A program made the position numbers and the translations under genes. The notes beneath the pieces are model-generated. The model was not told the origin of the DNA, did not search any database, and saw nothing but the letters and a program-made list of their open reading frames with translations. A stretch of 64,000 nt of DNA from an uncultured bacterium. Lineage in GTDB: Bacteria; Omnitrophota; Omnitrophia; Omnitrophales; Abzuiibacteriaceae. Shown here piece by piece: positions 3,552 to 25,700 of this stretch. The DNA lies in assembly GCA_964387845.1 (NCBI GenBank), contig CAYLXA010000003.1, positions 64,001 through 128,000 on the forward strand. The letters run 5' to 3'. Every line of letters begins with the position of its first letter. Position 1 is the stretch's first letter.

Positions 3552-5111
3552 TTAAAGTGTCCTAGCGTACTCATTCCGCTTGAGTTTCCAAACGGGGACG
3601 CCGCAGAAGCGGTCGCCTTCGGGGCAAAAGGGCTTAGTGCCGCCGCGCTCGCGAAGGCCGCAAGGCGGAAGAATGAATTGGGTGATGCGGGGATGGATTT
3701 TGGCGACTTCCTCGACTTCGTCCAAACACATGCGCCAAATTTCTTCCTGTGCTGTGTAACAAAGCCGCGTCGTCCATTTGTGGTGAAGGTTCAAAAGATC
3801 GCCCGATTCTTCGAAGCGAATCGGAAACGCGTTCGGCAGCAAATACATCGCAAATTCGGGCTTCACACCTTGCCCGAGCAAAATATTAATGTTCTGCCAA
3901 ATAACGGACATTGTTTTTACGTATAAATCGTTTGCTTCGGCGCATTCGGCAATTAATGGCGGCGTGATAAAATCAGGAATCTCGGCTTGGAAATGCGAAA
4001 ATAAAATCGGCCGCGAGCCGGGCGTCATGCGGTGGCGCTGGTCTTGAGAGTCAGCCGTATGTGAGAGTTTTTTCATGAATGTGTAATGCGGATGCGAAAG
4101 TGTGCGCGTGAGTTTCGATAAGGAAGACAAATTCAAAGCTTCTTTAAAATACGTATTTTTCTGCGGATCCAAAACCGCCAAAATCGCGTCCGAATCGCTC
4201 AAATCCCGCTTCGTTAAACCCAAAATGCTGCGGACCGACTGTGCCAGCACCGCTTCGGAATTTACTTTATAATCCACAAGTTTCGATGTTTTATTCCCGA
4301 GCCGTTCGTCAAATTCCTTCACAAACGCGTTTTCGGGAACTTCCGTGATGCTCCGCTCGTAAACGGAAAACATTTTGTATTCCGGCGTTTCCGTGAGAGG
4401 AATCGGGTCTTCGATATTTTTAAAGAAAAGCGGATCGATTTCGTTCACAGCATCGATCATTTTTCCGACGACGAGATTTTGTTCGTATGGCGTATCGAAA
4501 ACGTTCTTTAATTTATTGTAACGGTGCAAAGTCAAGCCGCTAATCGTGTGATACAAATGCGCATAAGTCGCGATCGGCAGAATGTAGCGCGCAACTTCCT
4601 GCACTTTTTTCTTGATGGGGCCTTTCCATTTTTCGGGATCTTTCGAACGCACCGGAAAGATTTTAAAATAGTGTTTCTCCGTATCCTTCCACAAAATTTC
4701 AATCAACTTGTGATACACATCCATCTGTAAATTGGCTGTTGCGTGATACGTCTCAAGCAAATGTTCCGGAAGAGGCGGCGTAAAATAAGTGCCGGGCTTT
4801 ACGGCCACATAGCGCTGGCTCACCTGTTCGGAATTATAGAAAGTGTGATTGTGAAGAAAGCTCCAGATAAACTGGCGTGAGATTTTCTCGAGCGTAAATT
4901 GAAATGTGGAGTGCTGAATCGTTGTGTGGTGACCGGCTTGATAAATGGATTCGGCGATTTTGTCGCGCAGAGCAACCGCTTTATCGTCTTTGTCGACTTC
5001 TTCCGTGGAAATCACGCGCGAAGAATAGCAAGTCCGCGCCGTTGCGACCGCGTTATTGAACGGCTCTTTGAAGGAATTGATAAGGGTTACGACAGGCTGT
5101 TCTGAATTCAT
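3552..5111 (-). CDS. tandem ThyX-like (FAD-dependent thymidylate synthase fold) protein
   Basis: First half (GHHTTIQHSTFQF...LHNHTF..SEQVSQRY) aligns to the ThyX core (GHETPFEHIVFTF...RHR..SGRY) but has HNH in place of RHR. Second half (HPHYTFM...QRHRMTPGS) keeps RHR but lacks S-x-RY. Confidence 0.5.
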   Translation of the reverse strand: MNSEQPVVTLINSFKEPFNNAVATARTCYSSRVISTEEVDKDDKAVALRDKIAESIYQAGHHTTIQHSTFQFTLEKISRQFIWSFLHNHTFYNSEQVSQRYVAVKPGTYFTPPLPEHLLETYHATANLQMDVYHKLIEILWKDTEKHYFKIFPVRSKDPEKWKGPIKKKVQEVARYILPIATYAHLYHTISGLTLHRYNKLKNVFDTPYEQNLVVGKMIDAVNEIDPLFFKNIEDPIPLTETPEYKMFSVYERSITEVPENAFVKEFDERLGNKTSKLVDYKVNSEAVLAQSVRSILGLTKRDLSDSDAILAVLDPQKNTYFKEALNLSSLSKLTRTLSHPHYTFMKKLSHTADSQDQRHRMTPGSRPILFSHFQAEIPDFITPPLIAECAEANDLYVKTMSVIWQNINILLGQGVKPEFAMYLLPNAFPIRFEESGDLLNLHHKWTTRLCYTAQEEIWRMCLDEVEEVAKIHPRITQFILPPCGLRERGGTKPFCPEGDRFCGVPVWKLKRNEYARTL

Positions 5112-5265
5112 TGGACGCGTATTATATCAGTATCTGGTATCTCGTATCTAGTATCTAGTCCACCGCACCTCCTCACCCTATCCCTCTCCCCCTCTAAGGG
5201 GGAGAGGGTAAAGGAGAGGGGGTTTGTAAAACGAGATACTAGATACCAGATACTAAATACGGAAG
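5110..5265. repeat. complex palindrome: GTATCT hexamer runs flanking a CCCTCTCCCCC-TCTAA-GGGGGAGAGGG hairpin (repeat family 2)
   Basis: gtatctggtatctcgtatctagtatctag ... agatactagataccagatactaaatac inverted arms around a GC-rich hairpin; it sits directly after the transketolase stop. Confidence 0.6.
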
Positions 5266-10731: not shown

Positions 10732-13700
10732 TTACGCCGCTTTTCCAAGTACGGCGCGGCTAAAGAGCGTATGCATGAGTGAGCTGATAAATTCCGAGCT
10801 CGGATCGATCACGTCGCCCAACGAACGGAAATTGAACGAATCATTATGAGCGATTAGAAGCTGCGCAGCCTCAACGGCTCCCGGTCGGCCCAAAACTTTT
10901 GGAATATCACGCCGCGTGAGTTTTGAGAATAAATCGTGCTCGCCAATGGCCACAATCCGAGTCGTATCGCCTTTTGCATTGAGTTCATGTTTTAAGCGGT
11001 CGATTAAAATATTGTACGCTTGATCCGCCGAAAGTTCGCGGCCGACACTCAAACGCTCGCGCGTATAAAGCTGCAAGCGCGATCTTTGCCCGCTTTGCTT
11101 GCCAAAAATGTCGGCGTTTGGAAATAACTCTTCAACAGCCCTTTCGGCAACAAATGTGTTATCAAATTCGGAAGCGACAACCGAAAATTCGATTTTTGAA
11201 CCGGGATTTGCACTCATATCCGCCAAAATCGCTTCGCGCAATTCCGAACGGTTCTTCAATTCCTCAAACGAGATTACAATATTCCCCTTCACGTTTGACG
11301 GAATGCTTGCTTGATTCGCTTCACGCCTCAATTCAGACCGGGATTCTTGAGTTTCACCAAAAACCGCCTTAAGTCGATCCAAATATTGTGTCCGGTAAGC
11401 GCCCTCCGGAAAGTCTTCCAACTCGTCGGGATGGCTGCGGGCGGCGTCTGCTTCCTGTTCGACCTCATCGCCAACCCGTTCATCCTCTAAATATTCTTTG
11501 ATCACCTTCGTGGCCGCTTCAAGCTGTGCTTGGGTAATTCCCAATCGTTTAGGTGCTTCCAAATAAATTGCGATCGGTGTTTCATATATTGTGAAAAGCG
11601 TGGTGGCGGTTATCCGGCTTGAAAAATGATTCGCCGGATTATTTTCTTCACCAATCCAATAACGGACACCTGCCTCGATCAAAGGCAGTGTCAAGCCGAG
11701 CAATATTCGGCTTGGGCCTTCATGCAAGCCGGCAGCGTGATTTAAAACTGCGTGTTCAAGATGAAAAGAACTGTTGTCCAAACGGCTTTCAAAATGATCT
11801 TTAAATTCATTCCGGATATGCTCGATCAATGCCTCATCGCTTGTGCGCAATTCAGAGCGGGATTCGTCCTTTCGTACAAGAGCGCTCTTCCAGCCTCTTG
11901 ATTTTTGGCCGTCAGCGCCAACCGCCATCAGCATGTTGCCAAGTTCGTACGTTTGTAAATTGGTCCTGCCAAATACAGCATTTGTTAAAATTTTTACTTG
12001 CACACTTTTATCTTCGATTTCTGAAATTACTTTTAAGATTGGATTAGCATTGGTTAAAGCATCTTTAATGATCCACCTCGCTAAATATTTTGGAAACTTT
12101 AAGAAAAATTCTTCTTGTTCCAGAAAAGTCAAATCAGAAAATTTTTCATCCAAAATTCTGATCAATTCATCCGTTGTTTTGACCTCGCCAAATCTTGGCC
12201 AAGCCGGGAAGTTTTCCTGAATAAATTCTTGTATTTTTAAAACTCTTTGTGCATCGTTAGAAAATTTTTGTCCTTTTGTTGCTTCTGAGATTAACTGATT
12301 TGTCAGAAGGCGTGGATTTTCTATTTGATATAAATTCGAAATTTGAATTCTTTCATCTTTGGATAATTCCGATATTTTCTGCCGAAGACGGCGTTCTAAA
12401 TCCATATCTTTTTCAGGATCAATAAAGGGCAATTCGTAGAATGAGGCGTCTGCTAAATCAGGATGATGACGGGTTAAATAAGTCAGTAAAATATCTTGGA
12501 TGCTTCTGTTTTCCAAAGGTACGTTGCCATCGCCAAATTCCCGCACTAAGAGTTCTTTTTTATTTGAATCACCAGATATTAATAATCTATTCGAGGCATC
12601 AATAAAAACTTCCGGAATAATTCCGGGGAATGCGAGAACAATCTCTCGTCCTTGCCGGAAACTATTCGGCTGAAATTTTTCCTGTGCCCAATCCGGAATA
12701 TCAGTTCTTCCCCAAAGTCCGCCTGCTTCACCCATAAAATCCCGTTTTAATTCTCTTTCTAAAGACTCAAATGAAACACCAGCGCGCAAAAGCCAGCTTA
12801 ATTTGGTCCGCGCTTTCGAGAAAGTCATGTGATAAGGAATATTAATGGCGCCTGATTGCGAAACATTTGAAACAACAGGGATTTTCTTCCTTTTCAAACT
12901 TTGAATAGTAGCCCTGATATATTCGATCTCGGGGTTCTTTGAAAAATCGCCCTGGATAACAAGTCCTGCCCGAACGCCGGCTTGCTCTGCGTGCCGCTCG
13001 ATTCGATTGCCGGCTTGAAAGAGCACCAGCGCAGGCGTTGTTTCATCTATAAGCAAATGCTCAACATAACCAAATTCTTCATTTTTATGAAACTTTGGTT
13101 GTTTTTCTAGATTGGCCAATTTGCTGCTTACTGTTTGTAAGAAATCCATATCGAAACTGATATTTCCCTTGGAATCAACGGCGCCGATTGCTTTTCCATA
13201 ACTAGCAAAAAGACTCCCTTTTGAAGACGAGTCCGTTCTGATCTTCGAAATAAGACTTCCGAGATAGATTTGACTGTCAATGACAACATAGACCAAATTT
13301 GGAATATCTGTACGTTTTGCAACTTCTTCAGCTGCTTTCAAATTTAATATCTTTTCCTTTTCATTAACCGTGGAAGATCCTGTTAAAACAATTCGTGTCG
13401 GTAATGATCCATCAAATTCAAGCGAAAGAACCAGGCCTGTTTCTGCCAAGGTGTCGGTTCCGTGCGTGAGGATAATTCCACCCATTTCTCTTTGAGAAAC
13501 CTTGATCTCTTCGGCTAATGTCGTCTTCCTCGAGATTTCATCTTTGATATGATCAATTATTTTTTCCCATTCTTTCGGGCCAATATTCGTACTATCCGGA
13601 TTTTTATCGAAAACACTTTTGTAAAAAACAGTATTCTTTAAATGCGTTAATAAAACTCTTACCGCATCAACAGTCTTCCGCGCAAATTCGCCGATCATAT

Positions 13701-16700
13701 CAATCGTTCCGCCGGCATTTAAGATTGAAACGCCGGACAATTCTTTCTGAAGTTCTGCAATACTTTGCCCGCTGCGCAATTCGGATCTCACGTTTTCTTC
13801 AACCGGCTCTTCGGCATTCGGCTCATCGAGCTGTTTCAAGACGCGGTTTGTGGTAGCAATCGAATCTTCAAAAACGCCCAGCTCTTCCTTCGCTTTTTTC
13901 AATTCTAATAATTCCCTTGCCTGATCTTCAGGAAGTTCGACAATCCGGTCTTTGATTTCCAAAATCTTTTCAAGTCTGTCCGGACTAACGCCCAGCGCTT
14001 TCCTTAAAAATGCGGAATCTTTTAAATAATCAAAGAGCTTTTCGACCGCTTTGGCCATATCAAAAGGAGGAAGGATTTTGATGTATTGATCAATGTCGGG
14101 TGTTTTGTTTTCCCATGCATCTTTCAAGATCGTCACATTCTGGACTATTTTTTTCTTCGTTCCCTTTCCTCCCTTCACCGGAGCATCCACAATCTTGGGT
14201 GCCAATTCGATGCCGGTTAAACGAGCTATTTCCGGCATCCTGGATTCTTTGTTATAAAGCTCTTTTCTAACCCGGTAAGGCAGCCGCATAACCAGATCTG
14301 CATGAATACGAGCTCTTAATAGTGCTTTATACTCAGGGCTTCCGAATTCAATCGGTTTTTCGGGTTCAGGCTCTTGCGTGACAGAGGAATTTTCGAATGA
14401 ATCGACTAATGGGGTTTTTCCTATGATCGCCCGGGGTATCTCCAAACGCCTATTCGTTACCGCTGCCTGGCGAGCGTTTTTAGGTAAAAATTTATCGGCG
14501 AAATGCGGCGGATACGGATCCGCATTAAGTTCTAGAACCGTTTCGCGCCTAATCCCATAAATTAAATCTGAAGTCACATTCAATATTCTCGCCAACTTGC
14601 CCACTAATCTAGTAACTTCGGTGAATTTGACTTGTTTACTCCCGGAAAGCACTGCGTGAACATGCCCATAGGTTTCTTGTATTTGATTAAAAAGCTCGCT
14701 GGTAGTGATATGAGTAATGCCTCTTGCTTCAACAATGATTCTAATTCTGTCCCAATATGTCAAACTTGGATCAAACAAAGATTCGATAATGGCTGGCGTA
14801 AGAGCATAAATCGTCCATTGATCAACCGGAGATGCTCTTTCAATTTCCGAGACAAATGGTGGTTGCTGTTCTGGTTGGGGCGCTTCGGAAGCAGTTTCTG
14901 GAGTACTATCAATGTTTTTTAGCATTTCCGACAATCTAAGCGGCAACATTTCTTCTGCAGTTTCTTCTATCGTACCCGTCAGGGGTTGTTCTTCTGTTTC
15001 TGAGGGTTTAGCTTCAGTCAAAACTTCTTGTTTTACCAACTCAAGTTCTTGCTCGGTAGTCAAACCCAATCGTATGGAAAACTGTTCAAAGAGCATGATT
15101 TCTGGCCCTAAGATCCTTCTGATTTCTTTACCCTCTTCGCTTTCAGGAGTGTGGAGCAATTGTGCAAACTCCAAAGTATCTACTAACACTTCCCGGCTGG
15201 CAATACGCGGCCCCCCAAATGCGGGGTTGGTCGGCGGTACAAACAATAAACCTCGGTCAATCATATGCTGCAATGCTTCACCCATACGGGCTCCGCCGAT
15301 CGTGGTACCGAGCCGCGGATGCCAAACGACGTCCTGCGATTGGCCTTCCGATTTCGTATAAATTTCTTCCCAAAGAATCAATGCAATCAAGAGAGGCGCC
15401 ATTATCCTGCCTTTGTTCGGCCCGCTTTTGTATTTGAAAAGAACGTCGGGATCCTTCAGTAAAGTATCGGGAAGCAGATATTCTTTCACTGAAAATTTCA
15501 AATATTCTTTCAATGCGGCTTGATCCACGGAAAGATTTTCAAACGGTTGGTCTGGATTTCTGTTTAAGATTGCTTCTTCAATTTTTTTGCGAACCTCCGC
15601 ACCCATTTCATGATCAACTTCGAGCTGATTTTTGCTGTTAAACAATGATTCAAAATCCAACCCCACATGATTCGTGTATTCAGACATAGCTTCTACTTGC
15701 CATGGCTCTAGCTTTTCTGAAAGCCATTCGTGCACTTGCCCTACTCGAATGGTAACGTCCCGGTATTTTTCATCAGAATAAATTTGGTCAACTAATTTGC
15801 TAATTTCTTGAGGGTCTTCTTCTTTGATTGTCTTGAAAAATAAGTTTTCAAGATCGGCATCTCCCGTCAAATGATGAAGCAGCATATACCGAAGAATTGT
15901 TTTTTGCGTATTGCCTGCAAACCGCATTCCTCTCACAGTATCTGAATCCCTCATCTTAGTAATCGCTTTCATGGAGGAGCGCCGGATATTACCATGCATG
16001 CGCTCGACTGCCTGGCGATTAAGTCCGAAAATCAAATAAAGATCGATGATCATAAGCTGGGTTTCAACTGGAAGAGCTCCGCTTTGCTCGAAGCTTCTCT
16101 CAACAGCTTTATCAATCAATCCAATTTGACCTTCAATCAACAAATGTGTACGCCGGCTCGAATCCATCATCGATTTCAAAAGCTTCAATCGGTGGCCTTC
16201 GGCTAACGCTAAATCACGAAATTCGATCTGAAGCGTTGTGCTGCGATTCATTTCTATCTGGCGTGAAAAAACTTTGTCCAGTTTTTCAAACGCTTTTTCC
16301 AAGTCTATCTTTGCCTGGCCGATCAACTCTTCCGCAAGCTCCGGTTCGACTTGATCCACCAAGTGATCGGCTTGGTTTAGTTTTGCTTTTGCCTGGCCTA
16401 AATAATATTTAAACCATTGCTTATAAACTTGGGTTGAAATGTCTTCATAGATAGAACGTAAACGCCAATAAGCTTCTCCCCATTTGCTGGATGTTTGGCT
16501 CTCTTTAAATGAATCATCGTCCAAGAATGTTTTTACGGTTACGGCAACCTTCATCATGGTTTCGTAAAATAAATTAATTCTTGCTTGTTGAATGGAAATA
16601 TCCGATGCGCCGGATAGTGACTTGAAGTCTTTGTGCAAACGCCCGTAAACAGGAGATGTTCTGCTTTCAAAAAATATAGACTCTTTATTTTTAATATCCA

Positions 16701-19700
16701 AAAGAGAAAGCAAAACATCCAACTTTTTTAAGACGGTGTTGAGATGTCTGTTTTGAAGAATGGGCGGGATTCTGGCCGTTAAAGCATGGGCGCCTTCCAA
16801 CCATGAATAAAACGCATTCCGCTCATCAGAAGTTCCCATTAAATCGATAAATTCATCTAATTCCTTTTTTAACTTTACCAAGCTATCAAAGTGGCGAACC
16901 AGGTCGGAATTCTTCAAATCCGAAAGAAATGCATCTAGAAAAGCAGATGATTGAGACGCTATTTTCAACTGCTCTTCAAGTTTCGCCCGGCTTTCGGCAG
17001 TATTTTCGGAGGCCAATGCAGTCAAGGCAGTTTGGCGTAAAGCAGAAATGGATTCTACCTCGATAAACTTTTTGGCCAACTCGTCAATTTTCTGGATTCT
17101 CTGAATAATTTTTTCACTGCGGGTTTTCCGAACAAAAGAAACGGTTTCATTTTCATTTGATTTAACAATCAAATTTAAAATTAACGGCAGGGCTTCCTTT
17201 CTGAAGAATTTGCCCACGATTTTCCGGATCTCATCCAGTTTTTCTGACCGTCCTTTTTCCGGATTATTGGCAAGTTGATTAATGCTCAAAATTCCTTCGT
17301 CAACTTCAAGAAGCCACGAAAATACAGTTTCTATTTCACTTGCGGTGCCTAGATCAGAAATAAATTTTTCAAACCGGCTTTGGATTTCTCTCAGTTTGTG
17401 ATAAGCATCCCTGTTCTCACTTTCGGTAAGACCGTCAAATATTTTTTTCAGAATTTCAAAAGATTTTCTTGCTTCCGATCCAATATTTTTAAGATCTTCA
17501 AACCCTGCAAACGCCGTTTCGATGTCGAATTCCCCGTCACTTGAAGCAGGAATTAATTTGGATAAAACAAATGAGTCTAGATCGGAAAACCATGCGTCTG
17601 AAAAAAATGCTGCATATTGGGGCGCTGCGGCCGCATAAGTAGTTTTGCTGCGTGTGATTTGAGACAGTAATAAATTCCCGCGGCTATTCGCTGATTTCCA
17701 GCTGTTCATATTCATGCTTTCAAGCGAACGCAATTCTGATTTCTTGCTTTCAGCCGCATTCAACGTTTCGGCAATGAACGTTTTCATTACGCGATAGACA
17801 TATTCGGTTTGCTCTTGGGTAGGTTCGCTATTAAGAAAACGATCATAGAATTTGGCGGGATCCGAACCGCGCGGGTAAGCCTGTGAATAAGACAAAAGCC
17901 AGGCGCCAATAATAGATTGTCTAAACGTTGGAAGAGGAAGTTTTTTTAATTGTACGCCGCGGAGGCCGATGTTGACGAAAATAGCCGGCACATTTGCATC
18001 AAATTCTTTCCAACGGCGAAGGCGATGAATCGGCGCAAACCGGTCAAGCTCGCCCTTCCAAGGAATATAATCAATCTTCAAATCCTGCCCGTCGACCGTA
18101 ATTTTTTTCAAATCTTTGAGCAATTCCATAGCTTTAGAAGTGGCAATAATGCGGATCGGAGCGCGCGTTTCGCGAGGGCGTCTTTCCATAAACGTGATAT
18201 GCCAATCCATCATAAACGGAATATCGGGAAATTTTTGATGCAGGACCTGCATGAATTTTTCTCCGATTGGCGCCGGAATAGATTCAAAATTAGGCTGTGA
18301 ATCCGGTTTAATCTCGGCTATCAATTCTTCCGAAAATGCAGCCAACATTTTTTTGAATAACTTGTCCCGCTCTCCATGAAATTCGAGACGTTTTTGAAAA
18401 TCTGCGGCGCCTGCCGACATTTTTCGTTTCGTGCTCAAGCGCCGCTTTTTTCTTTCAGAAGGCCAATCTTTTTCTGCGTCATTTGTGATACGCTTTTGAA
18501 CAATATGCAGCAAGCGACTATTGATTTCATTACCGATTAAACCTTCCCGATCGGAAGCTTTGCTGAAATGAAAGTCGATCAAATTTAAACTGCTCTGGTC
18601 ATCACTTGTTTCAATTGCACGATCAATATCTTCTATCACTTTTTCCAATGTTTCAACAAACCACCGTTCTTTATCTTTGGAATATCGCTTTGACGCGGCC
18701 CCGTGCTCAAAAATTCTTCTCCCTTCTCTTCTATAAGCTTCGAGCATCCGCATAACACCCCGGTAAATCAAGTTGGTCTCGCCGACCGGCGTAAAAGACG
18801 ATCTCCACCTGCCGATTGCAGCATACCCGCCAAATTCTTGTTTCAAATCACGAATCATTGCTGCCGTGCGCTCCAAAGGATAATCACGATCAGTCAAGAT
18901 AAGCGGTGCTGTTCCTTCGGAGGATTTGACCGATTCCAGCAATTGAATTGCAGAACCAATGCTTTCCGGGAACAAATCTTCCGGAGCAAGCAGGCCCAGC
19001 TCAAACATGATTTGATTAAAAATGGTGCGCTGAGGGCCTCTCAGGCCTTTTATCCATGGATCTTTTTCGTAAATGGGCCGGATGCTTTTTGCGGTGATAT
19101 TGCCGTCTTCATCGCGATATTGATTGAATATATCGTTTTCGATTAAATATTCGATCGTGTTGTTTAAATAATCATACTGACGTAGCGTATCGGTCCATAA
19201 CAATAGAAGAAAAACAAGTTCGGGAGCCGGTTTTTGAAAGGGCATGAGCTGCTCGATTAATTCGTCGGATTCAAGAACTTTTCGGTAATAATCGACTAAA
19301 TTTTCAAATTTGGGATCTTTTATTTTATATTCTCCGCGATCAAACTTGCGAATAACTCTCCTAAGCACTATTCGAACGTCGTGCTTGAGCAGGGCTTCAT
19401 ACGCATACAACACACGTGATATTTTGTTGTCATAATCCCACGACGGATTTTTAGCAAAATCACTCTCGATCGCGATAAGGGTCCTAGCAATCAAACTTGC
19501 TGCATACATATTAGACCCCGGCAGCGGGTTGCCATACATGAGATCGGTTACATTTGGATGGACAATGTTTCCTGCGCGATCTGTCTCATCATTGGAAACA
19601 ACTTCATTGGGGAACACCTGATCCATAATAGCTTCACGGCTTCGAGTCCTCCGGTATTCTTCCCGTGCCCATTCTAAACGTTTTTTAAGTTGCCACCCTT

Positions 19701-22700
19701 TCGACCCTATTCCCAAAACAGACAACAACATCGCAATTGCATAATCCCGATAACCGACGTTTCCGACCATTTCAAACCGCAGCCTTGGATTGATTGCACG
19801 ATTCAGCCGGCGTACTACTTTTCGAAGAGAATGTTCATTTGCGTATTGAAACGCCGGAATTTTAAGTGCGATCGTGCTTGGAAGGCCCGCCTTCTCTTTA
19901 ATAGCACGCTCGTAATGATTTTCTTGCTCGTTTTCCGCTAATCCTGATAAAGCATGAAATATTTTCCTTTCGGCAGAATCCTCAGACTCCAAATAAGCAT
20001 GCCAAGCACGAGATTCAAATCGCCCCCACAAGTTTCCAAGTCCATGAAATTGGCTTTGAAATGCAAAAACCTGGCTTGCGCTCGCCATTTTATTTAGATG
20101 ATAACTGGCTTCGACAAGTTGACGATAAATATCGGGCAGGCCTTTTGAAGGCGTCATTTTGTACCGTTCTAGAGTTTCAAATGCGGCGTTCTTATGATAA
20201 TCAAAATAGAATTCGTGAATGCTTATGATTAACTCTCTGGTTTTTTCTTTAAAAACATCAATGGCGTGCGATTTCCCAAGCCCCATTGCGAGATCATAAA
20301 ACGATTGGAAGTACCGCGATAACCCCTCTGAGACTGCAAACCGGAGTCTCGCGTCGGTCTTGGATTTTTCGAGCAACGTATTTGTTATATCGCGAACAGG
20401 TTCAAAGAACACTTCCAACTTTGATTCGACGTTACTCTTTTTATTTCTTTTTGTACTGCCCTTTTTGATGTTGGCTGTCGCCAAACTAATTAAAAATTCT
20501 TGTGCGGTCTTTTGAGAAAAAGAATTGATGATGTGTTCCCACAAAAATATTGGTACTTTGATTTTAGATTTTGCACTCTGCACTAAATCTAAAAACATCC
20601 TTTCGGTCATTCTTTTATGATTGAAATTTTTTACGGGCAATACACGCACGCCGGGAATCGACTGAATTAAGAAATAGCTTTCTCTTTGGTCCTTATCTCC
20701 GCTTGTTTCTAACTTGCGGCTCGTAATGAGTTTGACTCTCGCAATAATTTTTAAGTCTGTTTGTTCTCCTCCGCGTGCAATCAAGAAACCATCTTCACGG
20801 CTTGGATTTAGTTTTATATCAAATTTTAAATCGTTTTGATTCTTTTCGCCGATGATCTGTTGGATTTTGTCCAAATCTTTCTGCCGATGCCATGCGGATC
20901 TGATTCCGACAAGAGAACCGCCCACCGATTCAACTCGCACTCTTGATATTTGTTTAGGGACAGATTCAACACGAATATGCATTGATTCGGTATTGCCATC
21001 CTCGTCAAAAACAACTGTAAATGTGCGACCGTGGCCAACTGAAACTAACTGCCGACCCACAAATCTTTTGGTACCAATCCGCTTCGCTTGAGAGATCAAT
21101 GCATCATCCGATCTGAGTTCAGACTTTTTTGTGGCCTGTCTTATTTCAAAATACTGCTGATAAAGTTCCTGAAAACTCGGCGTTTCCTGGATTTCAAGTT
21201 CGATTTCTCTAGCCATGTCCACTGCAGTGTCATTCAGAATATTTTCGTATGCACCAGCATCATAAGCTTTCTGTGAATCCTTACCGATTTCGTCCAGCCA
21301 TTTCCTCTCTGCCGGAATCCAGTCTTTATAATCATAAAAAATACTTTCGACATCCTCATAGGCCGTGAAGCGGATTAATTGTTTAAGAATAGCTAAAACC
21401 GCAGGGCTTACCGCAACGCTAATTGGAACATTGGCGTATTTACCTTTCATGTAGATTAAAAACAGCATGAACCGCCGCCAGCCAGCCATTTCGCCGCAGA
21501 TACTGACTTCCAACCCTGCCGCGCTCGCATGCTCAATGATTGTTTCGATCTTTTCAAGAAATGTGGAAAGCAATTCTGTGTACAATCTTCCGCCATATTC
21601 ACGGTCCCGGCCGAATGTTTGTTGCAATAAATCATTGGTGCCGATAGAAATAAAATCGACGTATTTCTTCTGTGCGATCACCGGAAGATTTTCAATGGCT
21701 TTGTTGGTTTCGATCATAATTCCGAACGGAATTTTGATCCGGAAGCGATTAAGATCGTGACGAAATTTTTCTAACTCCTGATCAAAGATAGTCCGGACAA
21801 ATATTACGTCATCCTCAGTTTGAACCATCGGTACAAATACTTTGACCGCAGATTCTCTTCCGGTTTCTCCTTCGGCGTGAAAATGCTCTGCAGCCATAAT
21901 GCTCGCGCGAATTGCCGCTCGAATTTGAGCTCTCAAGATCGGTTCGCCTTCCGTAGGATCCCTGTAAAGATCGAACCCGATTTTTGTATTCGTTTCTGAA
22001 ATGGCTGAAACAGGCTTGTCCAGCTGACGGTCTAACGTTCTTACCGCAAATGCGCCACGTAAGATAATCCTGCCCTGAGATAATATTTGAGTAAGATCGT
22101 CTTCATATTCTTTTATATTTGCTTCCCAGGATTCGTGGCGGTAGAAATGCGTAGGGAAATTGACTTCGGTTCGATAGAGCCGCACACCATCCGTATCTGC
22201 GGAAAGCTCTTGAATATGTTCAAGCGCATCCGCACTTCCGCTAACTTCCATCAACAGTGAAGCAACGCTGTCTTTCTTTGCAAACACAGGTTCTAGTGCG
22301 AGGGTTTTTGCCAATTGCAAATACGCTTCTTCCTTGACGATTTTCTGTTCATATTCGGCAGCATCTTTTTGTGAAGGATTGGCATGCAGCATTCCGTTTT
22401 CCCCGTCCGCATAAATGATTTGCCCTGACTTGATATCTGCAAACTTACCTAGTTTGGCCTTGAGCGCGGTAAGAACTAAGATCCCGTAATTAGCGCCGAC
22501 AATAACCCAATGTTCGGTGGGAGATCCAAACTCGGCTACAACCGCACCCAAATTTGGGTAAGCTTTTTTTAGACTTAAGAGAGTCGGCGCATTCATCGCT
22601 CCTGCCAAATACGGCTGTTCTTTTGAGACTTTTAAAATAACCACCAAATGATCAACTTTATCCGTCGTAAATTGCTGATCCGACACCAATTGCCGCGCCA

Positions 22701-25700
22701 TTTTTTCGTTTAGAATCAAAACTGCGTCTTTTAAAAGAACTAAAATATTTAGCAGCGTTTTCTCCTGAAGATCGGATGTGTCTTCAGAACTCATCTTGGT
22801 GCCGATATCCAAAATCAACTTTTGATAAGCATATTGGAGCGCAACATCAGGATACACATTTTTTGTATTGATTAACCAGCTGGTTTCTTCTTGAAATCGA
22901 TCAAGAAGCTCTTGAAATGAATACTTATCCGGCATGTTGTCGACAGGCGCTTGATCAACTAATTGGTCAGCCGCTGATTGAAATGCGCTTGCTATTTGAT
23001 CGTTGTATTCTTTGATTTTCTCTTGATAGAGTTCCTCGGACATTCCTTCCATTTTAAAAGACTCGCCATAGCTCAAAAAACTCATCATCCGGTAGAGCGT
23101 GGAAAGGATTTCCCTATTTCGAGCCTTGATCTGTTTTTCTTCATCCGTGCCCTCGGTTCCCTTGAGAGATTCGATGGCATTATGGATATCTTTAACAATT
23201 CTAGGAATTGGCTGGCCGGCTTTTTCAAGCTGTGTATAAGCATTGGGGTGCGCATACAACTTAAACGCATCGAAATATGAGATTTTTTTGTCCTTCAAAG
23301 ATTCCATCACTAATTTTATTGAATCGGTGTTATATTTAAAAAATTGCCATGTGATTTCTAATGCTTTTGCATCACGCAGACGCCCTTTTTGCTTTAGATC
23401 CCGAATTCTAATTTGAAAATCGAAATTAAAAATATCTAGAATCGCTTTAAAATGTTGCACATCACGTTCGGCAGCTTCAGGGCTAAGAATGGCAGGCTGT
23501 TTAAATTTGCTGCTAAATTTTTCCAAACTCTCTCCTAGCGCTCTGCTCGACCACAAATAGTAAATCTGAAAACCAACGCTATTCACTTTTGATTTAATTT
23601 CTTCTTCAAGAAGATGATCCGCTCTTTTCCCTTCGCTTTCTATTTTTTCCAGAACAGAATCTTTCAATTCGTCTAAAACTTGCAGTAAATTTTTGTTCGA
23701 TTGGTCTTCTTCCAAAATCATCCTGTCTATCTTTTCTGAAAATTTTACCTTTTCGATTCTTATCTTTTCTTGAACATCTGGTTCTTCATCCAAATTCGAT
23801 CTCAACGAATAAGCAGCTGTAAAAAAGTCGTCTGCCTGGAAAAGCATCGTGGTGCCTCGAAATACACGCCGGGCCTGATTTTTATTGCCCTGCATCAGAA
23901 CGGTTCGAAGTTCTGATCTTTTTTCCGATTCGCCTTCGGCATCACTTGTTTTGCTTTTGGATTTTTTCTCTTCGATCATTTCTTCAATGAGATCCAGCAG
24001 ATCTGTTAGTTGAGGGGGCAAAACTCCTTCGATTGCGTCCATGCTCAGCCCTGTATTCGCAATCACTCTTGCGATTATTTCGAGAGCGCTGTTTCCTGTA
24101 GAAACCGGATTTGCATTTATAATTGCCGCTATTTCCTCGTCATTTACTGATTCTTCTTTCGGGTCAAAATAAGAAGCGATTCCGGATTGCGCAGCAGGTT
24201 TTTCGGATTTGTTTTCTGCTGCTTGAGGTTGGGTTTGCGGCTCTGCCGGCTGTGCTGATTTGGCTTTTTCAATGACGAGTTGAAAAAAAGCGTCTCTCTG
24301 GTTTTGCTTTATCGATTTGAATTGATCATTTATAAACTTAGCGAAGGTCGATCCTGCTCTTAAGGGAAATTTATTCACGCTCGGATTCCCTTGTTTATAT
24401 TCGCTTGCCAATGCGCCACTCTTGTTAGCGTCTGTGATAATTGTCCGCTCAATTTCTGTTAGGTTGCCTTCCTTCCCCTCGGCAAGTTTCACAACGCCGG
24501 AAAAAAATGCTTCCACGTTTGCCTGCTGCGTCATATCTGCCGGAACTCCCGCCGCCCAATCGATCAATTTTTGGATTTGCGAATTGACAGCCCGCAATTC
24601 AGAACGATCGTTCTTCTCAGATTGTTGAGAAGGTTGTATAGAAACTGCATACGAGGCCAATTTCGAATCATCAAAATATGCCCTATCAATAAACTTTTCA
24701 AAAGTGGCTTGCCAACCGTCAGGGTTGTAGTAATACTCGGGCAACGATTTTCCTGATTTTGCTTGCACTTCGGATGCAAACCTGAGCAAAGCTTGTTGGA
24801 TAGGAACAAGAAACCGGTTATCAAAATTCTCCGCCGCTGTCCCCGGATTATTTTTGTTGATCAACGCACGCGTATATCCCAATTGCAGCGTCATTAGTTT
24901 CAAAATGTATCTTGATTTTTTCCAGTTCTTATCATTTGCGGCATCACGAAATCTCGATGAATCATAATGAAGGCGCGTTAATGTTGCCGCAAGTGATTCC
25001 GGATATTGATCCCTGGAGACATAGCGGACTTTAAGCCAATCAGATGCAACATCATCTAAAAATACCGAAACAACTCTGTGGGGAGTTTGTTCAATAACAA
25101 CCGACTCTGGATCCTTGAAACCAACCACCCCATTCTCATAAGCAAGATGGCCGACTTCGTGATACACATGATAATCGCTTACCCATTCAAATAACCGTGC
25201 CCTGTCTTCCTTATTTCCAATCTCACCGTGGTGGATAATTTGATGCTGGAGCATTGCCATTCTGAGTGAAATTCGGAGTCTGCGATAAGTTTCGTCATAA
25301 ATTAACGAAAATCCTGTATTGTCAGCCATAGATTCCGAATCTTTCATTTCAGCCGAAAAATTGATAGAGGGTGTCTCTAAAAATTTCTTCAACTCTGCCG
25401 GTAACTTTTCATAACTCTCAGAGGTTCGGCTTATCATCAAAAACGAATCCAAAATCTCTTCCATACTTAAATTGAGCTTCTTGAGTTCGCGATAAATCAT
25501 GATTAGCATAGAAAAAATATTTTGGCTTAATTTGTCAGGAAATTTACTTGTTGAAGATGGGATATAAAGGAATGATGATTGACCGCCTCGATAGGCCGAA
25601 ATAATAACATCAATTGGCCTTGCAAAAAGCCATCTTGAAAAGTAAATAAGCATCACTTGTGTAAGTTTTTTGATTTGAGACAGGTTGGGAAATTCTGGTT

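What the first reader, a model, noticed from the sequence alone, without database searches (positions are those of the whole stretch)
3552..5111. Tandem-duplicated ThyX-like protein with complementary loss of motifs in each half
A 519-aa protein contains two ThyX-fold repeats. In repeat 1 the dUMP-binding RHR is replaced by HNH but the S-x-RY motif is intact (SQRY). Repeat 2 keeps RHR but lacks the S-x-RY motif. A C-terminal Cys-rich tail (PPCGLRERGGTKPFCPEGDRFCG) follows. Canonical ThyX is about 220-250 aa and forms homotetramers with inter-subunit active sites. This looks like a pseudo-dimeric single-chain version with asymmetric sites, possibly a ThyX paralog acting on a different nucleotide or nucleic-acid substrate.
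Basis: partly seen in the sequence, partly recalled or inferred. Interest (0 to 1): 0.5.

Follow-up and report, generated by a model that had tools for sequence, protein, structure and literature searches.

The report
Two-domain flavin thymidylate synthase (tandem ThyX)
This gene encodes an ordinary member of a very large, already annotated but never structurally solved class of double-length ThyX thymidylate synthases, in which the catalytic residues are split between the two halves so that probably only half of the usual active sites remain.

Summary
A 519-aa ORF lies on the minus strand at 3552-5111. Both halves match the Pfam Thy1/ThyX domain over its full length. Residues 87-89 are HNH where RHR is expected, SQRY is at 98-101, RHR is at 359-361, and a Cys-rich tail is at 482-504.

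It is not an oddity of this genome. Thousands of ~520-aa homologues exist in at least 581 GTDB species, and sources name them FAD-dependent thymidylate synthase. The motif split is near-invariant in 306 members. The N-domain keeps the T. maritima H53, S88, R90, Y91, E144 and R147 equivalents. The C-domain keeps the Q75, R78-H79-R80, R174 and Q180 equivalents. In canonical ThyX these two sets come from different subunits of one active site, so one composite site per chain is predicted and the reciprocal site is dead.

In distant members the gene sits in dUTPase/dCTP-deaminase, thyX, tmk, tdk, folD and glyA operons, which argues for true dTMP synthesis and against a new substrate.

Four family-specific, near-invariant cysteines (C451, C484, C496, C503) suggest an uncharacterised metal site.

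Verdict: a new member of a known kind, of modest interest.

The parts
3552..5111 (-). Complete ORF of 519 aa plus stop codon: a tandem (two-domain) ThyX flavin-dependent thymidylate synthase.
   Evidence: ORF list. Pfam Thy1 matched twice. TIGR02170 thyX scores 98.6 bits against a cut-off of 87.9. The same gene is called on an independent assembly.
4431..5087 (-). N-terminal ThyX domain (residues 9-227). It plays the 'monomer B' role and supplies the H53, S88, R90, Y91, E144 and R147 equivalents: H61, S98, R100, Y101, E172 and R175.
   Evidence: Pfam stretch 9-227. hhalign to T. maritima ThyX gives probability 97%. HMM alignment to M. tuberculosis ThyX chains. Conservation in 306 homologues.
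4809..4856 (-). N-domain motif L86-H-N-H-T-F-Y-N-S-E-Q-V-S-Q-R-Y101. The RHR arginines are lost (L/F at 86; S/A/N at 88). S98-Q99-R100-Y101 are retained.
   Evidence: In homologues an intein is inserted between N93 and S94 of this motif.
4587..4598 (-). E172-V-A-R175, the equivalents of T. maritima E144 and R147 (R147 is the dUMP phosphate ligand; recalled, not tested here). R175 is present in 307 of 307 sequences and E172 in 306 of 307.
4284..4430 (-). Inter-domain linker (residues 228-276), predicted to contain two helices.
   Evidence: Secondary structure of the AF2 model. The region lies outside both Pfam stretches.
3690..4283 (-). C-terminal ThyX domain (residues 277-474). It plays the 'monomer A' role and supplies the Q75, R78, H79, R80, R174 and Q180 equivalents: Q356, R359, H360, R361, R449 and Q455.
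   Evidence: Pfam match of the C-half, residues 22-219 of that half. hhalign to T. maritima ThyX gives probability 92%. HMM alignment to M. tuberculosis ThyX places R449 on R199. Conservation.
4011..4064 (-). C-domain motif S350-H-T-A-D-S-Q-D-Q-R-H-R-M-T-P-G-S-R367. It contains the only RHR of the protein. The canonical S-x-R-Y that should follow is absent.
3747..3767 (-). R449-L-C451-Y-T-A-Q455. R449 is the equivalent of the dUMP-activating R174. C451 is a family-specific cysteine. Q455 is the Q180 equivalent.
   Evidence: The role of R174 is taken from PMC8316439.
3555..3689 (-). C-terminal extension (residues 475-519) outside the ThyX domain. It contains P-P-C484-x11-C496-P-E-G-x-R-F-C503-G (residues 482-504, window 3600-3668). 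Together with C451 these form four near-invariant cysteines and a putative metal site.
   Evidence: The region is not covered by Pfam. Each of the four cysteines is present in 301-302 of 307 sequences. The AF2 model has low confidence for residues 497-519.

Best explanation
The gene encodes a genuine flavin-dependent thymidylate synthase (ThyX/FDTS; dUMP + CH2-THF + NADPH gives dTMP) of the two-domain ('tandem') class. An ancient internal duplication produced two ThyX folds in one chain, and these then specialised. The N-domain kept the residues that a canonical subunit uses to bind and react with its own dUMP: H61, S98, R100, Y101, E172 and R175, which correspond to T. maritima H53, S88, R90, Y91, E144 and R147. 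The C-domain kept the residues that a neighbouring canonical subunit donates in trans: Q356, R359-H360-R361, R449 and Q455, which correspond to Q75, R78-H79-R80, R174 and Q180. One complete composite active site can therefore form per N/C pair, while the reciprocal site has lost all of its key residues. I infer that the protein assembles as a homodimer that mimics the canonical homotetramer and carries two catalytic sites instead of four. A family-specific C-terminal extension with three cysteines, plus C451 next to the catalytic R449, probably binds a metal with a structural or possibly redox role. What is shown: the two domains, the residue partition and its near-invariance, the family's size, and the dTMP-pathway operon context in distant members. 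What is inferred: the oligomeric state, the number of sites, and the metal site.
For: Both halves are full-length Thy1 domains. The thyX equivalog model is passed. All PDB fold matches are ThyX enzymes. The residue mapping comes from hhalign to T. maritima ThyX and from HMM alignment to real M. tuberculosis and C. glutamicum ThyX chains. The partition is near-invariant in 306 homologues: S98 306/307, R100 306, R175 307, Q356 304, R359 304, R361 305, R449 304. The 'dead' positions are variable (88 S/A/N, 202 C/S/A/M/V, 371 A/H/S/F/E, 422 L/M/S/Q). The PBCV-1 ThyX structure paper assigns Q75 and R182 (=R174) to monomer A, assigns S88 and Q89 to monomer B (R90 lines the same pocket), and places the site at an interface of three monomers (PMC3498832). 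The catalytic roles of R174, S88, R90 and Y91 are taken from PMC8316439. Operon context of family members carrying the same 13-residue signature: MazG-DCD/dUTPase-thyX-tmk-tdk-SHMT...FolD (L083); thyX-DCD-tmk-tdk-FolD (L089); dUTPase-thyX-tmk-tdk-FolD (L090); dCMP deaminase and thyX-tmk (L082). Inteins are inserted inside the N-domain motif in three homologues, which is typical of essential nucleotide-metabolism enzymes (general knowledge of intein distribution). The duplicated ThyX is reported as the only thymidylate synthase in most Chloroflexi (PMC3224940).
Against: No enzyme assay, FAD stoichiometry or oligomer data exist for this protein, and I could not verify that any tandem member has been characterised. 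The window's own gene neighbourhood (transketolase subunits, TfoX_N, DMT_6) is uninformative, and 80 closer loci share no conserved neighbour. The active-site loops and the tail have low pLDDT. H87 and H89 in the 'dead' N-domain motif and R367 in the C-domain are conserved without an assigned role, so the second site may not be entirely inert. The absence of thyA was checked only over 64 kb.
Confidence: 0.75

Rival explanations
1. This is a ThyX-derived paralog that methylates or modifies a different nucleotide or a nucleic acid. The model would be ThyX-like enzymes of nucleoside-antibiotic pathways, an example I recall rather than tested.
For: Neither domain carries the classical contiguous RHRxxSxxxxSxR motif. 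There is a family-specific Cys-rich extension. Sequence identity to solved ThyX enzymes is low, at 14-20%.
Against: Every residue known to bind or activate dUMP is conserved when the two domains are taken together. The thyX equivalog threshold is passed. The gene is embedded in dUTPase/DCD-tmk-tdk-folD-glyA operons in three Patescibacteria-type loci and sits next to dCMP deaminase and tmk in another lineage. The family is present in at least 581 species across many phyla, as a housekeeping enzyme would be.
Confidence: 0.06
2. The C-terminal half is a degenerate, purely structural or regulatory pseudo-enzyme domain, and catalysis rests on the N-domains alone.
For: The C-domain scores lower against Thy1 (74.5 bits against 100.4) and lacks the S88, R90, R147 and H53 equivalents.
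Against: The N-domain lacks R78, R80 and R174, which canonical sites need from a partner subunit. The C-domain keeps exactly those residues at 304-305 of 307 sequences, and its stretch 350-361 is fully invariant among the 26 sequences of alignment A1.
Confidence: 0.05
3. It is a thymidylate synthase as in the best explanation, but the four conserved cysteines hold a redox-active Fe-S cluster. The tandem class would then use a different electron route (for example ferredoxin or a flavin reductase) from the NADPH route of canonical ThyX.
For: C451, C484, C496 and C503 are each present in 301-302 of 307 sequences and are absent from solved ThyX enzymes (C451 aligns with Ser in M. tuberculosis ThyX). 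The 'CP' and C-x6-C spacing is reminiscent of Fe-S ligation, which is my own knowledge and only a lead. C451 lies two residues from the catalytic R449. In one thaumarchaeal locus a Flavin_Reduct gene lies next door.
Against: No Fe-S or zinc family matches the tail in Pfam or NCBIfam. A structural zinc site explains four cysteines equally well. The AF2 model does not fold the tail confidently. No distances could be measured.
Confidence: 0.15

Closest known systems
Canonical single-domain ThyX / FDTS (T. maritima TM0449, M. tuberculosis ThyX, PBCV-1 A674R; Pfam PF02511, TIGR02170)
   Same: It has the same fold, twice over. It has the same catalytic residue set and the same logic of active sites built from several subunits. 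The expected chemistry is the same.
   Different: Two fused, diverged domains (about 17-23% identity to each other) replace identical subunits. The ThyX motif is split, with RHR only in the C-domain and SxRY only in the N-domain. Two sites are predicted instead of four per tetramer-equivalent. There is an extra 45-residue Cys-rich tail. No solved structure of this class appeared among the PDB matches.
'ThyX with a domain duplication' noted in Chloroflexi and a few other species (Valas & Bourne 2009, PMC3224940)
   Same: The architecture described is the same. It is stated to be the only thymidylate synthase in most Chloroflexi and to be uncharacterised.
   Different: I could not confirm by sequence that the Chloroflexi proteins belong to the same family as this ORF. 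The present data show the class is far more widespread than 'a few species': at least 581 GTDB species and 308 clusters at 50% identity with E<=1e-30.
Chlamydia trachomatis ThyX (Griffin et al. 2005, J Biol Chem 280:5456) and the Trichodesmium erythraeum intein-containing ThyX with 'distinctive ThyX motifs' (Liu & Yang 2004, J Bacteriol 186:6316)
   Same: From memory only, chlamydial ThyX is about 529 aa and may be of this tandem type. Chlamydial ThyX was left out of the first ThyX tree for lack of sequence identity (PMC6171736). C. trachomatis ThyX is active in NADPH-oxidase assays (PMC3498832). Chlamydiae MAG proteins are 58% identical to this ORF. Homologues of this ORF carry an intein in the ThyX motif.
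   Different: If it is confirmed, the enzymatic activity of the class is already established.

Membership tests
ThyX / flavin-dependent thymidylate synthase (Pfam PF02511, TIGR02170) | ThyX (Thy1) fold detectable by the family profile above the curated threshold | tested here: met
   PF02511 gives 170.4 bits for the whole protein, 100.4 bits for the N-half and 74.5 bits for the C-half, against a cut-off of 24.8. TIGR02170 gives 98.6 bits against 87.9. All Foldseek PDB hits shown are ThyX enzymes, with probability 1.00.
ThyX / flavin-dependent thymidylate synthase (Pfam PF02511, TIGR02170) | Contiguous ThyX motif RHRxxSxxxxSxR(Y) within one domain | tested here: not met
   The N-domain has LHNH...SQRY, with the RHR arginines lost. 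The C-domain has RHR but no S-x-R-Y at the aligned positions. The motif is complete only when the two domains are combined.
ThyX / flavin-dependent thymidylate synthase (Pfam PF02511, TIGR02170) | Full set of dUMP-binding and catalytic residues (T. maritima H53, Q75, R78, R80, S88, R90, Y91, R147, R174) | tested here: met
   All are present once per chain: H61, S98, R100, Y101 and R175 in the N-domain, and Q356, R359, R361 and R449 in the C-domain. Each is conserved in at least 282 of 307 family members. The T. maritima sequence was recalled from memory. Its numbering reproduces the published residue names, and part of it matches the alignment printed.
ThyX / flavin-dependent thymidylate synthase (Pfam PF02511, TIGR02170) | Homotetramer with four FAD sites at three-subunit interfaces | not testable with these tools
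A dimer with two sites is inferred from the residue partition.
ThyX / flavin-dependent thymidylate synthase (Pfam PF02511, TIGR02170) | Functional link to dTMP synthesis (pathway context, or being the sole thymidylate synthase) | tested here: met
   This holds for distant family members carrying the same residue signature: operons with dUTPase/DCD, tmk, tdk, folD and glyA and dCMP deaminase plus tmk. It is not shown for this window's own locus. Sole-enzyme status is reported for Chloroflexi in PMC3224940.
ThyX / flavin-dependent thymidylate synthase (Pfam PF02511, TIGR02170) | FAD binding and dUMP-, CH2-THF- and NADPH-dependent dTMP formation; thyA complementation | not testable with these tools
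   This needs an experiment.
Tandem (domain-duplicated) ThyX class | About 500-560 aa with two Thy1 domains and the 13-residue signature C28, H87, S98, R100, R175, Q356, R359, R361, R449, C451, C484, C496, C503 | tested here: met
   The query carries all 13 residues. Of the 306 retrieved homologues, 293 carry the identical pattern, and the exceptions are mostly truncated sequences.

The most novel reading that the evidence does not exclude
The tandem ThyX class is an obligate half-of-the-sites thymidylate synthase, with two composite sites per dimer. Its family-specific, near-invariant Cys4 motif (C451 next to the catalytic R449, plus C484, C496 and C503 in the tail) binds a metal centre, possibly a redox-active Fe-S cluster. 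That would give this very widespread but structurally and biochemically undescribed class a cofactor or electron route that canonical ThyX lacks.
Probability: 0.2. Interest if true: 0.6.

Novelty: new member of a known kind. Interest (0 to 1): 0.3.

Why it matters
ThyX is an antibacterial drug target and a textbook case of an enzyme whose active sites are shared between subunits. The tandem class appears to have hard-wired a division of labour between the two halves of that shared site. It is a natural experiment in subfunctionalisation after internal duplication, and it predicts half the number of sites. The class is present in at least 581 species, including Omnitrophota, Planctomycetota, Elusimicrobiota, Myxococcota, Patescibacteria, Acidobacteriota, chlamydial MAGs and archaeal MAGs. 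Even so, no tandem-class structure appeared among the PDB matches, and the accessible literature barely mentions it. The conserved four-cysteine motif is a concrete, testable unknown. For this particular window the gene is simply the organism's housekeeping thymidylate synthase.

Tried and rejected
1. I tried to show that the biochemically characterised C. trachomatis ThyX is of the tandem type, and none of the following routes reached a named Chlamydia sequence:
- A second homologue search seeded with a Chlamydiae MAG protein.
- Three cluster look-ups of 30 representatives, which added Patescibacteria, Acidobacteriota, Thaumarchaeota and Nanoarchaeota names.
- A ranking of representatives by similarity to the Chlamydiae MAG proteins.
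- Ten literature searches.
- Attempts to open Griffin 2005, Leduc 2004, Koehn 2009, Koehn & Kohen 2010 and Liu & Yang 2004, none of which is held.
- The afdb50 fold library, which was not available.

2. I looked for a conserved gene neighbourhood in 80 GTDB loci. Nothing turned up beyond lineage-specific neighbours and a spurious antisense ORF. tblastn with the tmk, dcd and HD proteins of L082 found nothing in those loci.

3. I looked for thyA, folA or a second thyX in the 64-kb window using sequences recalled from memory. None was found, but 64 kb says little about the genome.

4. Direct BLASTP of the two halves is only marginal (E=0.09). Profile methods were needed to show the duplication.

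5. The first attempt to scan genome contigs with the diverse alignment A2 failed because it had no conserved stretch. A1 worked.

6. I considered and rejected three alternatives. A gene fusion or assembly artefact is ruled out by thousands of full-length homologues and an identical gene on an independent assembly. A wrong start codon is ruled out because homologues align from residue 1-5. I first considered C28 part of a five-cysteine cluster, but it aligns with a cysteine of M. tuberculosis and C. glutamicum ThyX, so it is not specific to the tandem class.

Full report
**1. The observation**

The window has a 519-aa ORF at 3552..5111 on the minus strand, starting with ATG. The identical protein is called on an independent 12.7-kb assembly with the same neighbours. 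Pfam Thy1 (PF02511) matches it in two stretches.
- Scanned separately, residues 1-255 give E=1.5e-28 and residues 256-519 give E=1.2e-20. Each covers positions 1-190 of the 191-position profile.
- The halves are only about 17-23% identical. BLASTP gives E=0.09, and profile-profile comparison gives probability 94% with E=1e-7. The duplication is therefore ancient.

**2. How common it is**

The protein is one of a very large family.
- A word-indexed search returned more than 6,700 hits. The best 120 are nearly all of about the same length (487-549 aa), 57-95% identical, and named 'FAD-dependent thymidylate synthase' or 'thymidylate synthase ThyX' wherever a source names them (one is 'hypothetical protein'). 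They come from Omnitrophica, Planctomycetes, Eisenbacteria and Chlamydiae MAGs.
- An exhaustive HMMER scan of 1.84 billion cluster representatives found 308 clusters at 50% identity with E<=1e-30.
They are spread over Omnitrophota, Planctomycetota, Elusimicrobiota, Myxococcota, Bradymonadia and others.
- Cluster look-ups add Patescibacteria, Acidobacteriota, Thaumarchaeota and Nanoarchaeota MAGs.

NCBI's thyX equivalog model is passed, at 98.6 bits against a cut-off of 87.9. All PDB fold matches to an AlphaFold2 model (mean pLDDT 76.5, pTM 0.77) are single-domain ThyX enzymes. No tandem ThyX appears to have been solved.

**3. Anatomy of the split**

I aligned each half-family (50 sequences at 30-57% identity, alignment A2) to T. 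maritima ThyX. That sequence was recalled from memory. Its numbering reproduces the published residue names, and part of it matches the 4gtl alignment printed. I also aligned the whole-family profile to real PDB sequences of M. tuberculosis and C. glutamicum ThyX.

| Domain | T. maritima residues retained (residue in this protein) | T. maritima residues lost (residue in this protein) |
|---|---|---|
| N-domain | H53 (H61), N85 (N93), S88 (S98), R90 (R100), Y91 (Y101), E144 (E172), R147 (R175) | R78 (L86), R80 (N88), R174 (K202), Q180 (P208) |
| C-domain | Q75 (Q356), R78-H79-R80 (R359-H360-R361), R174 (R449), Q180 (Q455) | the GH(E)T segment with H53, S88 (F371), R90 (H373), R147 (M422) |

In 306 homologues the retained residues are essentially invariant: S98 306/307, R100 306, R175 307, Q356 304, R359 304, R361 305 and R449 304. 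The lost positions are variable. A 13-residue signature is identical in 293 of the 306 homologues, and the exceptions are mostly truncated proteins.

**4. Why the split makes sense**

- In canonical ThyX the active site lies at an interface of three monomers. In the PBCV-1 structure, Gln-75 and the strictly conserved Arg-182 (the R174 equivalent) come from monomer A. Ser-88 and Gln-89 come from monomer B, and Arg-90 lines the same pocket (PMC3498832).
- R174 activates dUMP. S88, R90 and Y91 assist methylene transfer (PMC8316439).
- The tandem protein has kept the 'monomer A' set only in its C-domain and the 'monomer B' set only in its N-domain.
- One composite site can therefore be built per N/C pair, and the reciprocal site lacks every key residue.
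- I infer a homodimer that mimics the canonical tetramer but has two catalytic sites.

**5. Function**

The window's own neighbourhood is uninformative: transketolase N and C subunits upstream, TfoX_N and DMT_6 downstream. Eighty closer loci share no conserved neighbour. Distant members carrying the same signature do have informative contexts.

| Locus | Source | Gene order around the tandem thyX |
|---|---|---|
| L083 | Patescibacteria chromosome, 810 kb | MazG, dCTP deaminase/dUTPase, thyX, thymidylate kinase, thymidine kinase, SHMT, then FolD nearby |
| L089 | unnamed contig with the same layout | thyX, DCD, tmk, tdk, FolD |
| L090 | unnamed contig with the same layout | dUTPase, thyX, tmk, tdk, FolD |
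| L082 | a different lineage | thyX followed by tmk, with a dCMP deaminase gene upstream |

Together these genes make the substrate dUMP, consume the product dTMP and regenerate methylene-THF. In addition, three homologues carry an HNH-endonuclease intein inserted exactly inside the N-domain motif (FYN|intein|SEQVSQRY). Inteins typically sit in conserved sites of essential replication and nucleotide-metabolism enzymes; this is general knowledge, not a test made here. A 2009 paper states that most Chloroflexi have only a ThyX 'with a domain duplication', calls it uncharacterised, and says it occurs in a few other species (PMC3224940). Together this argues strongly for a bona fide thymidylate synthase and against a new substrate.

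**6. What remains unexplained**

- Four family-specific cysteines are near-invariant: C451, two residues after the catalytic R449, and C484, C496 and C503 in a 45-residue tail outside the Pfam domain. Each is present in 301-302 of 307 sequences.
- C451 aligns with a serine in M. tuberculosis ThyX.
- C28 is also conserved, but it aligns with a cysteine of actinobacterial ThyX and so is not class-specific.
- The tail is modelled with low confidence (pLDDT 35-52), and no profile family matches it.
- A structural zinc site is the conservative reading. An Fe-S cluster is the more novel one. Neither could be tested here.
- H87 and H89 in the 'dead' N-domain motif and R367 after the C-domain RHR are also conserved without an assigned role.

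**7. Comparison with what is known, and limits**

The protein works like, and is best filed as, a ThyX/FDTS. It fails only the classical contiguous-motif criterion, which it meets in trans. The architecture has been noted in print. From memory, it may include the kinetically characterised C. trachomatis enzyme and the Trichodesmium intein-containing ThyX 'with distinctive ThyX motifs'. I could not verify either point. The literature I could read says only two things. Chlamydial ThyX was too divergent for the first ThyX phylogeny (PMC6171736). The C. trachomatis enzyme is active in NADPH-oxidase assays (PMC3498832).

**8. Verdict**

- This gene is a routine member of a large, annotated class, so it is a new member of a known kind.
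- The explicit residue partition, the half-of-the-sites prediction and the conserved Cys4 motif are worth a structural biologist's attention. That is why interest is 0.3 rather than lower.

Noticed in passing
window 10732-27243 (- strand): A giant 5,503-aa ORF contains nine copies of the motif [KR]SELR, at residues 510, 881, 1110, 2041, 3169, 4487, 5130, 5303 and 5333. Composition predicts 0.24 copies. The motif looks like a recurring module boundary or a processing site of a polyprotein. By eye, some segments resemble PEP-utilising enzymes and asparaginase.
   Followed up: no
window 5121-5157 (- strand), just upstream of the thyX ATG at 5111: Four tandem heptamers of the form NAGATAC (TAGATAC TAGATAC GAGATAC CAGATAC) are followed directly by TGATATAAT, which looks like an extended -10 element. 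This ends only 9 nt before the start codon, and no Shine-Dalgarno sequence is obvious (sequence printed). It may be an operator together with the promoter of a leaderless or short-leader transcript.
   Followed up: no
homologues P0334, P0136, P0164 (no window coordinates); insertion point corresponds to window ~4830-4835: Homologues of 820-850 aa carry an intein with an HNH-type endonuclease. It is inserted between the N93 and S94 equivalents of the N-domain motif (FYN|C...HN|SEQVSQRY).
   Followed up: partly
L087 5655-6218 and L088 5655-5930 (Thaumarchaeota MAG loci): A Flavin_Reduct (PF01613) gene lies immediately downstream of the tandem thyX, in convergent orientation. This may hint at how the flavin is reduced in that lineage.
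   Followed up: no
L083 3103-9638; L089 4001-8343; L090 3504-7903: Three contigs, one from a named Patescibacteria chromosome, carry compact dTMP operons: MazG and/or dUTPase/DCD, tandem thyX, tmk, tdk and FolD, plus SHMT in L083. In L083, L089 and L090 the cluster follows a topoisomerase I gene.
   Followed up: partly
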